Positions 1 to 27,365 of a stretch of 64,000 nt of DNA are shown one piece after another. The stretch is from Octopus sinensis. Its lineage: Eukaryota. The notes under the pieces are model-generated. The model ran no database searches and was not told the DNA's origin. It saw nothing but the letters and a program-made list of their open reading frames with translations. The stretch lies in contig NC_043000.1 in the NCBI RefSeq assembly GCF_006345805.1, positions 97,154,001 through 97,218,000 of the forward strand, read 5' to 3'. Made by a program: the position numbers and the translations under genes. Every line of letters starts with the position of its first letter. The first letter of the stretch is position 1.

Positions 1-610
1 TTATTTTTCACCCTTTCTGGTTTCTTCTCCTCTCCCTTTCACCGTTCCTCCTCCTCCTCCCTCTCGTCGCTGACCAGAGGGCTACTAACTTTCTTTCTGT
101 CTACTGCCTTCAACAAGTCAATATCAGCTTTTCTGTCCTCGTAAGCCGTTCTTCATAATGCGTTCAAATGAATTTTTCCAGCGTCTAGGCTTTAAAAAGC
201 CCTTATTGTTGGTTTTCTTGTCCTGTCTTTTACTGTTTTCAACTTTATTTGTACTATTTTTTTCTTTATTTGTATTGCTTTTACGTCCTGTTCTTGTCAC
301 CTTTTTTTATCCCTCCGCAAAAAAAAAAAAATATTTAATTCGCTTTGCGAGAAGGACTGTTTCAACGTAGTCGTGTTATGCCCTTACCTTCGAAACACGC
401 AATGAGTCGAAACAGGGGCAGCTGAAGAAGGGGAATGTTCCTTGTGTTGTTTGTCTTGTACTCTGTTTTTTCGTTGTTAAAAAAGCCCGTTTCCTTGTTT
501 TGTTTTTATCTTTTCGTTTCTCGTTGTGTTCTACGTTTATTTGTGGTGTCCTGTACCCATATATGCATGTATATATACATATAGATGTAGGTATGTACAT
601 ATATGTATGT
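1..610 (+). mobile_element. Penelope-like terminal repeat (pLTR-like), family A, running into a (TA)-rich tract
   Basis: Pyrimidine-rich 5' part, CTGAAGAAGG motif at 422 and T-rich tail ending in TA repeats. Homologous to the minus-strand copy at 26820-27365 (shared TTTGCGAGAAGGACTGTTT and GTCCT(G/C)TACCCATATATGCATGTATAT). Same layout as the GIY-YIG-bearing element at 32225-33415; no ORF here. Confidence 0.55.
357..433 (+). ncRNA. Candidate permuted/pseudoknotted hammerhead ribozyme
   Basis: Stem III CGTGT(372-376)/ACACG(395-399) following GAA at 392; GUU triplet 375-377; stem I TGCCC(379-383)/GGGCA(416-420) with an A378.G421 mismatch; CTGAAGA 422-428; stem II CTTC(388-391)/GGGG(430-433) with two G.U pairs; outer helix CTGTTTC(357-363)/GAAACAG(409-415). 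Confidence 0.5.
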
Positions 611-23795: not shown

Positions 23796-23962
23796 TAAGC
23801 AGAAAAGCGATAGCCACATCTAAGTGGCAGATGAATGTTACTACTAGTTTAATCCCAGGCGGATTCTCCGCTTGCAACGAAAACCAGCTGGTGGAGAATC
23901 TGCCTGGGGTTAACTAGTAGTAACATCCATCTGCCACTTAGATGTGGCTACTCGCTTTACTG

Positions 23963-23966
<4 letters not shown>
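23796..23966. mobile_element. ~170-bp hairpin MITE-like element in (TA)n
   Basis: TAAGCAGAAAAGCGATAGCCACATCTAAGTGGCAGATG...GGATTCTCC / GGAGAATC...CATCTGCCACTTAGATGTGGCTACTCGCTTTACTGCCTA; ~75-bp arms, ~23-nt loop. Confidence 0.7.
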
Positions 23967-24004
<38 letters not shown>

Positions 24005-24008
<4 letters not shown>

Positions 24009-24620
24009 AATACAAAAATGGGACAAGAATGCAACAGGCGAAAAAAAACATCCAGTCAGTTAGAGGATACAAAAAGGGGCAAGAAAAAACAAGGACGGGT
24101 CATTCGGAGATTTCCTTCCTCAGTCGTGTTCTAAATCATCTTTGCAGTTTCGTCTGGTTATACTCGAGACTGCTCCAATCTGGCCAACTCCAAAGAAAAA
24201 CTAAGCTAAGAGTACTAGATTCCTTGGCAGAAAGCAGTGAATGTATACGAAACAAGGACGAAAAAAACGGAGAAATGGTACACAAATACAAATGCAGACA
24301 ACAGGACATAACAAAAGGTGGCTTTCGACTAAGGACAAATTAAATTAAGCTGGTGTGTGTGGAAGTGAAGTCTTACGGCCGGGACATAAGAGATGACAGG
24401 CATGGGAAGGAATATAGATGTCGCACGGATGGTAGTCAAACCAAGAAAGAAAGGTCAGGCCTAGCAGAACACCGGTCACGTAGAAGTAGAGGCGAGAGGT
24501 AGAGGCAGAGGGATAGAAGAATTAGGGAGGGAAGAGAAAGAAAGAGAAAAGAAGAAAAGTGACAGAGTGAAGTGAAAGAGGAGAGAAGACGAGAATGAAG
24601 GGAAGGCCAAGGTGCGTGTA
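24005..24620 (-). mobile_element. Penelope-like terminal repeat (pLTR-like), family C
   Basis: Minus strand: CT-rich region, structured motif containing CTGAGGA, T-rich tail ending in (TA)n. Layout matches the other pLTRs; no ORF. Confidence 0.5.
24114..24183 (-). ncRNA. Candidate permuted/pseudoknotted hammerhead ribozyme
   Basis: Minus strand: CCAGATT-GGA-GCAGT-C-TCGAGT-ATAACCAGAC-GAA-ACTGC-AAAGAT-GATTTAG-A-ACACGA-CTGAGGA-AGG. Stem III is a perfect 5 bp, GUC triplet, stem I 5/6 pairs, outer helix 6/7 pairs; stem II is only ~1 bp in this copy. Confidence 0.55.
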
Positions 24621-25030
24621 AAGTAACTAGGCATTAGAAATTGCTTATAGAATGTTTAGTATCACTGAAGTCATGACGAAAATATTCTTTAAACCGACAA
24701 CACTAATATATATGTAGGTATGTACATGTATGTAAATGTGCATATATATATATATATATTCTGTATTCCTAGCACATATTTCGCCTTAATGTACTGATAT
24801 ATGAAAAATATATGGCTTGTGTTAGTAATACCAGCGATTATAATTATTTTTATTTTATCGCAATTTGATTTGTTTACATATTTCTCGATAAATTATGAGC
24901 GCCAGGCGATATACCAGAATTCCCTAGTGTTGTCGGGACGTTCGGAGTCTCGCAGTGATATGATTAGTTAGGAAGAGTAAATCATTAGACGCACATGCTT
25001 CTAGTGAGTTAGGATCCCAGAAAAACAGGG

Positions 25031-25100
25031 TCTCACTGAAGATTCTCCCTGGGCAAATAAATTATCTTATTGCTGAAAAGAAAGAAACTGCAGTCTGAGA
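25031..25100 (+). ncRNA. Type I hammerhead ribozyme with palindromic loop 3
   Basis: TCTCA-CTGAAGA-[long stem II TTCT..GCAAATAA/TTATTGC..AGAA]-GAAA-C-TGCA-G-TC-TGAGA. Perfect stem I; predicted GUC cleavage after 25095. Confidence 0.8.
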
Positions 25101-25424
25101 ATTTACCGGTTTAGTAAATGTTTTTATCTTCATTTCACTTAATTTATCAAGCTTCTGTATTCCTAGCACATATTTCGCCTTAATGTACTGATATATGAAA
25201 AATATATGGCTGGTGTTAGTAATACCAGCGATTATAATTATTTTTATTTTATCGCAATTTGATTTGTTTACATATTTCTCGATAAATTATGAGCGCCAGG
25301 CGATATACCATAATTCCCTAGTGTTGTCGGGACGTTCGGAGTCTGCGCAGTGATATGATTAGTTAGGAAAGTAAATCATTAGACGCACATGCTTCTAGTG
25401 AGTTAGGATCCCAGAAAAACAGGG

Positions 25425-25496
25425 TCTCACTGAAGAATTCTCCCTGGGCAAATAAATTATCTTTATTGCTGAAAAGAAAGAAACTGCAGTCTGAGA
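25425..25496 (+). ncRNA. Type I hammerhead ribozyme with palindromic loop 3 (second unit)
   Basis: Same motif: CTGAAGA 25430-25436, GAAA 25480-25483, predicted GUC cleavage after 25491. Confidence 0.8.
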
Positions 25497-25686
25497 ATTT
25501 ACCGGTTTAGTAAATGTTTTTATCTTCATTTCACTTAATTTATCAAGCTTCTGTATTCCTAGCACATATTTCGCCTTAACGTACTGATATATGAAAAATA
25601 TATGGCTTGTGTTAGTAATACCAGCGATTATATTATTTTTTATTTTATATCGCAATTTGATTTGTTTATATTATATATATATAAAT

Positions 25687-25733
<47 letters not shown>

Positions 25734-25740
25734 ATATATA

Positions 25741-26726
25741 ATATTGTGTAACCTCACAGGTAAAAATCACATGGAGTGAGATCTGAACTGGACTTCTGCG
25801 GTCACAGTCTTCAGGTTTTAGCGCCAGCATGTAACGGGGTTTCTACGAACGAAAATTCAGTTCTTTATGCAACATTGTACGTATTGTGTGTCTTGTTAGT
25901 CCATTTTCAAGCTGCTTGACGTGTTGTCTTTGCGGGCTGCGATTAAACATTTTCTGCACTGTTACCACGTTCTACACTGATTAGGATGTGGTTGGACGGC
26001 CACTTCTCCTTGCATCGTTTACAGAGCCCGTGATCATCAGCTTTGCATGACAACTTTTTATTGTTTCCAGACGTAGCGTTGCATGCTTACCTATTTATGT
26101 ACACCACCGTCTCTGAACCAAAACAATAGAATTCCACACTTCATAGCATGCTATCTTAGCTCGCTCCTGAACAGTCAAGCAACTGGCCACTAGGAAAATA
26201 AGAAATAAGATATAATGCATGAAAATAAAATATCCCCTATTTTATTTTCATGCCTTATTTCTTATTTCTTATTTTCCTAGTGGCCAGTTGCTTGACTGTT
26301 CAGGAGCGAGCTAAGATAGCATGCTATGAAGTGTGGAATTCTATTGTTTTGGTTCAGAGACGGTGGTTGTACATAAATAGGTAAGCATGCAACGCTACGT
26401 CTGGAAACAATAAAAAGTTGTCATGCAAAGCTGATGATCACGGGCTCTGTAAAAACGATGCAAGGAGAAGTGGCCGTCCAACCACATCCTAATCAGTGTA
26501 GAACGTGGTAACAGTGCAGAAAATGTTTAATCGCAGCCCGCAAAGACACACGTCAGCAGCTTGAAAATGGACTAACAAGACACACAATACGTACAATGTT
26601 GCGTAAAGAACTGAATTTTCGTTCGTAGAAACCCCGTTACATGCAGGCGCTAAAACCTGAAGAGTGTGACCGCAGAAGTCCAGTTCAGATCTCACTCCAT
26701 GTGATTTTTACCTGTGAGGTTACACA

Positions 26727-26730
<4 letters not shown>
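25741..26730. repeat. ~990-bp near-perfect palindrome bounded by (TA)n
   Basis: ATATTGTGTAACCTCACAGG... / ...CCTGTGAGGTTACACAATAT; centre GAAAATAAAATA-TCCCC-TATTTTATTTTC near 26235; a few substitutions and indels between arms. Confidence 0.92.
26280..26680 (+). pseudogene. Tc1/mariner-superfamily transposase N-terminal (DUF4817-like HTH) fragment; mirror copy on - at ~25795-26190
   Basis: Frameshifted translation ASCLTVQERAKIACYEVWNSIVLVQRRW..KHATLRLETIKSCHAKLMITGSV.DARRSGRPTTS..MFNRSP..GLTRHTIRTMLRKELNF..KPRYMQALKPEECDRR. Confidence 0.7.
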
Positions 26731-26795
<65 letters not shown>

Positions 26796-26819: not shown

Positions 26820-27365
26820 CTGTACATACCTACATATATATGTTATATACATGCATATATGGGTAGAGGACATCAAAAGACATGAACAAATGAGAAACGA
26901 AAACATACAAAAACAATATCATAGAAAACGAACTTTTTTTCGAAAAACGAAAGTAAAATTAGAGAAACGAGACAGGCAACATAAAGAACATTCCCTTCAT
27001 CAGTTGTCCACTGTTTTATCTACTCCGCGACTTAGTTAAAACAGTCCTTCTCGCAAACCAAATTAAATAAAATTTGGGATTTTTGGGGGAGGGTTTAAGT
27101 GGTAACAAAAAAAGGACAGTAAGAACAAAACAGTAAAAACAAACGGTGAGGGTTAAGCCAAGACGGTGTGAAGTGGTGAATGCTGGAAAAACGAGCTTTG
27201 AGGAGAGAGGTAAACGCACGTCTTGTCTTTTGGAAGGAAGTAGAAGCAAGAAAGATAGATAGCCGTTGCTCACGTGTGAGCAACGAGAGTCAAGGAGGAG
27301 GAGTGAGAGAGAGAGAGAAGCGGGAGAACGGTGAAGGGGAGAGGAGAAAAATAGGGAAAGAGTGG
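26820..27365 (-). mobile_element. Penelope-like terminal repeat family A, second copy with internal deletion
   Basis: Homologous to 1-610. Keeps the helix ACTGTTTTA/TAAAACAGT and GGACAA-CTGATGA-AGGG but lacks the ~26 nt carrying the UH and GAAA strands. Confidence 0.6.

What the first reader, a model, noticed from the sequence alone, without database searches (positions are those of the whole stretch)
24114..24183. Permuted (pseudoknotted) hammerhead ribozyme architecture in a pLTR-like repeat
Seen: on the minus strand all hammerhead core parts are present, in the order outer helix 5' (CCAGATT), stem III + GUC + stem I (GCAGT-C-TCGAGT), GAA + stem III (GAAACTGC), outer helix 3' (GATTTAG), stem I + CUGAGGA (ACACGA-CTGAGGA-AGG). 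Established: types I, II and III are circular permutations of one cyclic order, CUGANGA then GAAA then UH. Here the order is UH then GAAA then CUGANGA, the opposite cycle, so a monomer can only form as a pseudoknot linking the distal ends of stems I and II, which lie close together in the HHR 3D fold. The motif sits ~110 nt before the (TA)n end, where canonical HHRs sit in the other pLTRs of this window. Inference: a natural HHR topology that type I/II/III descriptors would miss, possibly used by Penelope-like elements. Caveats: stem II is only ~1 bp in this copy; a local GGA/UCC hairpin followed by GAAU is an alternative fold; I cannot check whether this is already published.
Basis: partly seen in the sequence, partly recalled or inferred. 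Interest (0 to 1): 0.92.

Follow-up and report, generated by a model that had tools for sequence, protein, structure and literature searches.

The report
Four-way-junction hammerhead ribozyme of Naiads
The stretch is a worn copy of a rearranged self-cutting RNA (a hammerhead ribozyme) whose parts are wired in an order we found in no paper; it sits at the tail of a group of animal jumping genes that were thought to lack this ribozyme, though cutting itself has not yet been tested.

Summary
That order is published (type SGC, Eckert 2023). Two further helices (open helix IV, hairpin V) fill the A9|G10.1 break with almost no unpaired bases, a Holliday-like four-way junction that Eckert's six-permutation scheme excludes. 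Four unrelated repeat families of this genome share the six-helix plan. It lies on the coding strand 3' of Naiad-type RT genes in 15 of 80 metagenome loci, against 0 of 80 antisense and 0 of 1600 shuffles. Stem II covaries at 5 of 6 pairs in one clade. By eye, 9 published Naiad consensi (ctenophore, cnidarians, cephalopods) carry it; nematode and spider Naiads carry CSG and SGC forms. Naiads were reported to lack canonical hammerheads. The window copy is decayed and belongs to a non-coding ~790-nt unit with no ORF found. Cleavage and expression are untested.

The parts
24007..24611 (-). 5'-truncated copy of a ~790-nt non-coding Penelope-like repeat unit (family 1), ending in (TA)n
   Evidence: matches positions 181-790 of a full unit at 85%; core-to-core period 791-796 nt in 3 partial tandems; 3801 candidates, 40 scored
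24228..24233 (-). helix IV, 5' strand (pairs with the bases right after A9)
   Evidence: 184 of 197 cells paired in 34 copies; first pair broken in this copy
24190..24227 (-). hairpin V (arms 24227-24220 and 24197-24190), abutting helix IV and G10.1
   Evidence: 259 of 272 cells paired
24184..24189 (-). stem II, 10.x strand (G10.1 is A in this copy, G in 29 of 34)
   Evidence: 187 of 204 cells paired; covariation
24177..24183 (-). outer helix P, 5' arm (stem I-stem II interaction helix)
   Evidence: 225 of 238 cells paired
24168..24173 (-). stem III 16.x strand and cleavage triplet GUC; predicted cut between 24168 and 24167
   Evidence: position by analogy with the hammerhead core, not tested
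24162..24167 (-). stem I, 1.x strand
   Evidence: 153 of 170 cells paired (5 pairs counted)
24152..24157 (-). stem II, 11.x strand
24144..24151 (-). GAAA (G12-A15.1) and stem III 15.x strand
   Evidence: stem III 158 of 170 cells paired
24131..24137 (-). outer helix P, 3' arm
24117..24129 (-). stem I 2.x strand (24129-24124) and CUGANGA core (24123-24117)
   Evidence: N7 is the most variable core position
24111..24116 (-). helix IV, 3' strand, starting right after A9
291..452 (+). second, sequence-unrelated family (family 2) with the same six-helix plan; core at 422-428
   Evidence: no significant similarity to family 1 (best E 0.07)
26977..27073 (-). family 2 relic with an internal deletion; core at 27003

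Best explanation
A self-cleaving hammerhead ribozyme of a permuted form, carried in the 3' end (pseudo-LTR) of Naiad Penelope-like retroelements and of short non-coding units that probably use Naiad enzymes. Order 5'-3': IV - hairpin V - II(10.x) - P - III(16.x) - H17 ^ I(1.x) - II(11.x) - GAAA - III(15.x) - P' - I(2.x) - CUGANGA - IV'. SHOWN by sequence comparison: six helices, an intact core, G10.1-C11.1, A15.1-U16.1, an NUH triplet, the coding strand, the place 3' of RT. INFERRED: one molecule folds the usual hammerhead core; P holds stems I and II side by side, as in type SGC; IV and V stack as one helix and stem II stacks under the A9-G12 pair, so the four meet in a strand-exchange four-way junction that replaces the missing A9-G10.1 backbone link; the RNA cuts 3' of H17 once CUGANGA and IV', the last parts made, are transcribed. 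In tandem pseudo-LTR transcripts this would cut out unit-length RNA. The products stay joined by helices IV, II, P and III, which may favour religation or circles (speculative). The window copy is probably dead.
For: Four families in the own genome, with different stems, fit the plan. Test that did not require stem II: asking only for core plus stems I and III in 80 Naiad-type loci gave 15 cores on the coding strand and 0 antisense; all 15 have a 5-6 bp Watson-Crick partner for the 11.x strand upstream and at most 3 downstream. Full form in 15 of 80 loci (13 after removing two near-duplicates), 0 of 80 antisense, 0 of 1600 shuffles. In 19 representatives helix IV pairs in 70 of 76 and V in 72 of 76 cells with four pair types; 17 of 19 have no unpaired base at the junction; all 19 allow a zero-gap IV+V, against 19% of flank shuffles, and 13 of 19 beat all 200 shuffles. 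One clade of 6: 94.9% of 276 cells paired, 10 of 46 pairs change on both sides, 5 of the 6 in stem II (only G10.1-C11.1 fixed), 0 of 500 shuffles as high, slid controls 33-44%. RT fragment and motif lie in one locus in L153, L157, L162; N-terminal GIY-YIG and C-terminal RT in L197, L200, L201, L213, L224. Types SGC and CSG, which share this cyclic order and the P helix, cleave in vitro (PMC10085705). Minizymes with a non-paired linker after A9 can cleave (PMC544870).
Against: No cleavage data for this form. The window copy is decayed, and only 10 of 34 family 1 copies keep core plus G10.1-C11.1. Within families the differences look like neutral decay (family 1 non-CpG: core 7 of 270, stems 3-10%, flank 263 of 3988), so the covariation comes from between families only. 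Pairing of I, II, III and P was required by the search and is no independent test. Helix IV is short in some families (3 bp in family 3) and showed no two-sided change inside the clade; L196 and L209 were matched by 22 and 44 of 200 shuffles. Seven of the 19 representatives come from one or two related clades. 65 of 80 Naiad-type loci lack the form (7 have CSG or SGC; most have no CUGANGA in view; 17 have under 300 nt of 3' flank). A de novo scan of 400 kb of random genome gave 2 cores, neither passing the full filter, and 1 of 10 shuffles also gave 2. No ORF is linked to family 1 (0 of 20 full-length loci). A Poseidon hammerhead needed protein to cleave and was not needed for insertion in vitro (PMC11167929).
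Confidence: 0.77

Rival explanations
1. The fold is real but does not cut alone: a hammerhead-derived structure that serves as a binding or start signal for the Naiad RT/endonuclease, or that cuts only with protein help.
For: The Poseidon PAc hammerhead cut only with protein, core mutants did not affect insertion, and no RNA-seq reads ended at its site (PMC11167929). The break at A9|G10.1 has no tested precedent that I found. Six helices with two pseudoknots may misfold (nested ensembles form only subsets).
Against: All catalytic core bases, G10.1-C11.1, A15.1-U16.1 and NUH are kept across 19 representatives while N7 and the stems vary, the pattern of selection for chemistry. Protein-assisted cutting would still be a ribozyme.
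Confidence: 0.13
2. The ribozyme works as a dimer or across tandem copies, as minimal Penelope hammerheads do: block C of one copy is completed by the stem II strand of another.
For: Family 1 forms partial tandems and inverted pairs. Penelope type I hammerheads are thought to cut as dimers (PMC6765202). Stem I of family 1 holds a palindrome.
Against: Helix IV closes the motif locally in ~100-140 nt, and all six helices can form in one copy. Stems in most other families are not palindromic, and stem III is 4-6 bp, not the minimal palindrome.
Confidence: 0.06
3. One reading: plain type SGC with an intact block C and a stem II of about 1 bp (or the G-run after A9 in family 2 acting as stem II).
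For: In family 2 the G-run after A9 could pair 4 bp (2 G-U) with the 11.x strand. True SGC with intact block C occurs in Naiads (L225 by eye; spider consensi by eye).
Against: In family 1 the base after A9 is A in 30 of 34 rows, facing C11.1. The upstream partner gives 5-6 Watson-Crick pairs against 0-3 downstream in all 15 unbiased cores and covaries. The family 2 G-run pairs better with an upstream C-run as helix IV.
Confidence: 0.02

Closest known systems
Type-SGC and type-CSG hammerhead ribozymes (Eckert et al. 2023, PMC10085705; seen: abstract, sections 7, 13-17, part 1 of 18, term search of the supplement)
   Same: Same reversed cyclic order of the core parts, same stem I-stem II interaction helix, two pseudoknots in the core.
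   Different: Eckert assumes CUGANGA and its stem II strand stay together (at most 1-2 inserted bases), giving six permutations. Here that block is split and two helices fill the break. Their SGC and CSG RNAs came from metatranscriptomes and metagenomes, none from genomes of known organisms, with no retroelement link stated (Octopus, Acropora, Metazoa 0 hits in the supplement text).
Naiad Penelope-like elements with 'HHR_core' / 'HHR_half_core' (Craig et al. 2021, PMC8557442; seen: passages, supplement parts 1 and 24, 3' ends of 53 of 54 consensi)
   Same: The motif is in the 3' UTR of Naiads; Naiad_Ovul, marked HHR_half_core, has it, and 190 exact pattern matches lie in this genome against 0 for the reversed control. 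Same (TA)n targets, partial tandems and inversions.
   Different: The paper reports no canonical hammerhead in Naiads and leaves the core-only cases unexplained. By eye 5 of 8 half-core and 4 of 9 core entries of the Naiad sheet resolve as split, CSG or SGC hammerheads. Family 1 itself has no ORF.
Type I hammerheads of Penelope/Poseidon/Neptune pseudo-LTRs and non-LTR retrozymes (passages of 10.64898/2026.07.22.740005, PMC6765202, PMC11167929)
   Same: Ribozyme near the 3' end of a Penelope-like unit; short non-coding units riding on an autonomous element.
   Different: Those are canonical or minimal type I, often dimeric, in head-to-tail arrays; this is a reversed-cycle, six-helix monomer in dispersed or partially tandem copies.
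Pseudoknotted type I/II/III hammerheads and core-insertion variants (Perreault et al. 2011, PMC3088659; passages)
   Same: [quoted passage not shown]
   Different: Canonical cyclic order; insertions are 1-2 bases at other places. A single extra A between A9 and G10.1 in a viroid hammerhead is recalled from memory, from no call.

Membership tests
Hammerhead ribozyme class | Core CUGANGA, GAAA and UH next to stems I, II, III | tested here: met
   NUH triplets GUU 5, GUC 5, GUA 5, AUC 2, AUA 1, CUC 1 of 19
Hammerhead ribozyme class | G10.1-C11.1 opening stem II and A15.1-U16.1 opening stem III | tested here: met
   G-C fixed in 6 of 6 while the other 5 stem II pairs covary; G in 29 of 34 family 1 copies, A in the window copy
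Hammerhead ribozyme class | [quoted passage not shown] | tested here: met
   helix P of 5-11 bp in 19 of 19 (required by the search); one two-sided change; predicted, not probed
Hammerhead ribozyme class | Site-specific self-cleavage 3' of H17 | not testable with these tools
   needs in vitro assay; only assembled contigs were on offer
Types I, II, III | Cyclic order CUGANGA - GAAA - UH, three-way junction without pseudoknot | tested here: not met
   order is reversed; no Rfam hammerhead hit
Type SGC (Eckert 2023) | 5'-3' order site, GAAA, CUGANGA with an interaction helix | tested here: met
Type SGC (Eckert 2023) | Stem II strand follows CUGANGA within 1-2 bases (intact block C) | tested here: not met
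   downstream 0-3 pairs, upstream 5-6, in 15 of 15
Type CSG (Eckert 2023) | Intact block C first, then site, then GAAA | tested here: not met
   same cycle, other opening point; true CSG found in 4 other loci by script and 2 by eye
Naiad Penelope-like elements | N-terminal GIY-YIG followed by C-terminal RT | tested here: inconclusive
   met for motif-bearing loci L197, L200, L201, L213, L224 and RT end for family 3; family 1 of the window has no ORF in 20 full-length loci, families 2 and 4 none in the loci held
Naiad Penelope-like elements | 5' truncation, partial tandems and inversions, (TA)n targets | tested here: met
Non-LTR retrozymes | Head-to-tail arrays with a type I hammerhead in each unit | tested here: not met
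   copies are dispersed or partial tandems and the ribozyme is not type I
Non-LTR retrozymes | Circular RNA form | not testable with these tools
   no raw RNA reads offered

The most novel reading that the evidence does not exclude
A seventh natural hammerhead topology, opened between A9 and G10.1 and re-closed by a Holliday-like four-way junction, is an active cleavage-ligation device of Naiad retroelements across ctenophores, cnidarians and cephalopods. It keeps its two products clamped by four helices, so unit-length RNA is cut late and closed into a circle that serves as retrotransposition template; Naiads as a whole hold a series of openings of one reversed cycle (CSG, SGC, split). I put the active, unpublished topology alone at about 0.65; the figure below is for the whole reading with circles.
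Probability: 0.3. Interest if true: 0.95.

Novelty: new variant of a known kind. Interest (0 to 1): 0.86.

Why it matters
It breaks the stated rule behind the six possible hammerhead permutations, and gives a natural case of helices grafted into the A9-G10.1 link. It offers a direct answer to why Naiads, among the most abundant Penelope-like elements of invertebrates, seemed to lack hammerheads: they carry reversed-cycle forms that descriptors and Rfam miss. It places SGC and CSG forms in named animal genomes. Six family hits in 400 kb of random sequence suggest very roughly 40,000 copies here, mostly decayed. The test is cheap: 100-140 nt RNAs. An exit port at A9|G10.1 would also be a new attachment point for ribozyme switches.

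Tried and rejected
Rfam on the window: the 150 listed of 321 matches were microRNA models on microsatellites; 171 weaker ones were not shown. De novo scan of 400 kb random genome: too few intact copies to be significant alone; a tolerant scan of all loci did reveal family 4. GIY-YIG search: top loci were mostly Neptune-type C-terminal endonuclease elements; family 2 copies behind L112 and L122 are separate insertions, so a Neptune link was rejected. Word-indexed protein search found nothing; the full HMMER search did. A broad alignment was too divergent for the locus scan; a closer one worked, so the 80 loci are the best 80 of 428 and lean towards the query's clade. Sequencing runs: no RNA holder listed; contigs of 4 runs guessed to be RNA cover the unit in fragments and show no start, end or circle joint; no evidence either way. 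One pattern scan of viral contigs: 0. RT tree: quick search only, 81 rows, L163 a long short row; split-form loci fall in three places on both sides of the midpoint root, so single origin with losses and repeated origin both stay open. The local GGA/UCC hairpin and the 1-bp stem II were rejected. Literature: 10 full-text searches found no report of this form or of permuted hammerheads in Naiads; Weinberg 2015 (cited for variants with additional helices) and Hammann 2012 were not held, figures are not visible, and subscription papers are not searched, so prior description cannot be excluded.

Full report
Observation. Alone this copy proves little: its nested fold is no better than shuffles (z +0.98). 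A genome search gave 3801 candidates, 40 scored, at 83-88% identity. In 34 aligned copies the majority letters make stems I, III and the outer helix P fully paired, and N7, the one free core position, is the most variable core site. The window copy is a decayed member.

What is published. The reversed order is type SGC of Eckert et al. 2023 (PMC10085705), which cleaves in vitro at 0.007-0.13 per minute and has the same outer helix. That paper assumes CUGANGA and its stem II strand stay together, which gives six permutations. It found SGC and CSG only in environmental sequence.

The departure. In family 1 nothing after CUGANGA pairs with the strand before GAAA. Its partner is a 6-nt strand just 5' of P (187 of 204 cells paired, G10.1 in 29 of 34). 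A second family in the window (291-452, plus strand), with no significant similarity to family 1, has the same order with other letters. A third was found through the published Naiad consensus (190 exact matches, 0 in the reversed control) and a fourth by a tolerant scan of random genome stretches. All four also have an open helix IV that starts right after A9, and a hairpin V between the 5' strand of IV and G10.1. Of 46 hits with upstream II and P in all loci then held, 45 had IV and V; the other is 5'-truncated.

Tests beyond this genome. An RT fragment from the own genome (L163) retrieved 1980 relatives; an alignment of 16 gave 428 metagenome stretches, of which the best 80 were kept. The full form lies on the coding strand 3' of RT in 15 of 80 (14 of 63 with at least 300 nt of flank; two pairs are near-duplicates), in 0 of 80 antisense strands and 0 of 1600 shuffles. 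Asking only for core and stems I and III gave the same 15 cores, each with 5-6 Watson-Crick pairs for stem II upstream and 0-3 downstream. In 19 representatives IV pairs in 70 of 76 and V in 72 of 76 cells, 17 have no unpaired base at the junction, and all 19 allow a zero-gap IV+V that arises in 19% of flank shuffles; 13 beat all 200 shuffles, L196 and L209 did not stand out. Pairing of I, II, III and P in that set was required by the search. In a MAFFT alignment of one clade of 6, 10 of 46 pairs change on both sides, 5 of them in the upstream stem II, with only G10.1-C11.1 fixed; 0 of 500 shuffles reach this, slid controls pair 33-44% against 94.9%; helix IV had no two-sided change there. Rfam finds nothing.

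The carrier. Motif-bearing loci L197, L200, L201, L213 and L224 encode an N-terminal GIY-YIG and a C-terminal RT, the Naiad plan. In the own genome, 9 of 20 loci taken at the Naiad ORF end have the motif 0.9-1.1 kb downstream, and 3 of them show RT by tblastn. Craig et al. 2021 (PMC8557442) report that Naiads lack canonical hammerheads and mark unexplained core or half-core cases. Reading the last ~300 nt of 53 of their 54 Naiad consensi by eye, plus wider views of six: the split form is in 9 (Bfor, Chem-3, Amil, Aacu, Anas, Movir-2, Obim, Ovul, and Esco with a stem II mismatch), type CSG in 6 nematode elements (one with an extra U after A9), type SGC in 2 spider elements and probably one ostracod; the rest show other motifs, unresolved cores or nothing in view. 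These readings were not scripted. Among the 80 loci, 4 are CSG by script, 2 more CSG and 1 SGC by eye. All share one cycle and differ in where it is opened. A quick RT tree puts the split form in three places; it does not settle the order of events. Family 1 itself is a non-coding unit of about 790 nt: full-length copies start at one place after (TA)n, often behind a partial copy of their own 3' end with a GTAAGT donor-like site, and no ORF lies upstream in 20 loci. That it uses Naiad enzymes is inferred from the shared ribozyme plan, target and tandem pattern.

How it most likely works. Shown: the six helices and their conservation pattern. Inferred: P holds stems I and II together as in SGC; IV stacks on V and II stacks under the A9-G12 pair, so a four-way junction with strand exchange stands in for the A9-G10.1 bond while keeping A9 and G10.1 in place. 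Backbone changes after A9 are tolerated in engineered minizymes (PMC544870); a viroid with one extra base there is recalled, from no call. The core is completed last, so cutting follows transcription of the element's tail, and in tandem transcripts it would release unit-length RNA. The products stay joined by four helices, which may favour ligation (speculation). Origin by tandem duplication of a CSG or SGC unit, using the front of one copy and the back of the next, is a simple route (inference). Against: no cleavage or expression data (searches were uninformative); within-family variation is neutral decay; a Poseidon hammerhead needed protein and was dispensable for insertion in vitro (PMC11167929).

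Novelty and verdict. Ten full-text searches found no report of this form or of permuted hammerheads in Naiads; two relevant papers were not held and figures are not visible, so prior description is possible. It is a hammerhead by every sequence criterion, not a member of types I-III, SGC or CSG: a new variant of a known kind. Structure real about 0.95, self-cleaving monomer 0.77, interest 0.86.

Noticed in passing
PMC8557442 File S5, nematode Naiads; L211:3435-3560, L256, L260, L264, L267, L269: Clean type-CSG hammerheads with intact block C in Naiad 3' ends; Eckert 2023 knew two natural CSG sequences, of unknown host. They form one group on the quick RT tree (support 90).
   Followed up: partly
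PMC8557442 File S5, Naiad_Smim, Naiad_Sdum, Naiad-1_Dst; L225:4620-4740: Type-SGC hammerheads with intact block C, some with 100-190 nt between the site and GAAA blocks; Sdum has a UUGAAAA core variant.
   Followed up: partly
PMC8557442 File S5, bivalve and hemichordate Naiads CGi, Sglo, Olur, Tgra, Pmar, Skow, Pfla: A different conserved 3' motif with a hairpin and an H-type pseudoknot shared across two phyla; a candidate structured RNA or ribozyme that I do not recognise.
   Followed up: no
PMC8557442 File S5, mussel and clam Naiads Mgal, Bpla, Mphi, Scon, Mmer: A shared 3' motif that recalls a twister ribozyme (resemblance from memory).
   Followed up: no
L171-L195 (family 4), e.g. L179:1540-1636 minus: A second, 7-bp perfect partner for the stem II 11.x strand overlaps helix IV and hairpin V, so an alternative, inactive fold or switch is possible.
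   Followed up: no
L122 minus strand, 3' UTR behind a C-terminal GIY-YIG ORF: Neptune-type elements here carry a type-I-like hammerhead with a UUGAUAA core variant, missed by a CUGANGA search.
   Followed up: no
window +45336 and -43004: Inverted pair of type-I-like hammerheads (stem I 5 bp, U-U at the first stem II pair) about 2.3 kb apart.
   Followed up: no
window 23800-23965: Near-perfect ~160-bp inverted repeat (MITE-like) directly beside the (TA)n end of the element.
   Followed up: no
window 24748-25740 and 25698-26773: A 394-nt tandem repeat (2.5 copies, 97%) followed by a ~1.07-kb near-perfect palindrome of two head-to-head repeat copies.
   Followed up: no
L213, L217, L224, L225: Naiad-type ORFs of about 1300 aa that run ~300 aa beyond the usual RT end; extra C-terminal part unidentified.
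   Followed up: no
L063:537-2384: Open 615-aa RT plus C-terminal endonuclease frame of Hydra-type Penelope-like look in a random stretch of the genome.
   Followed up: no
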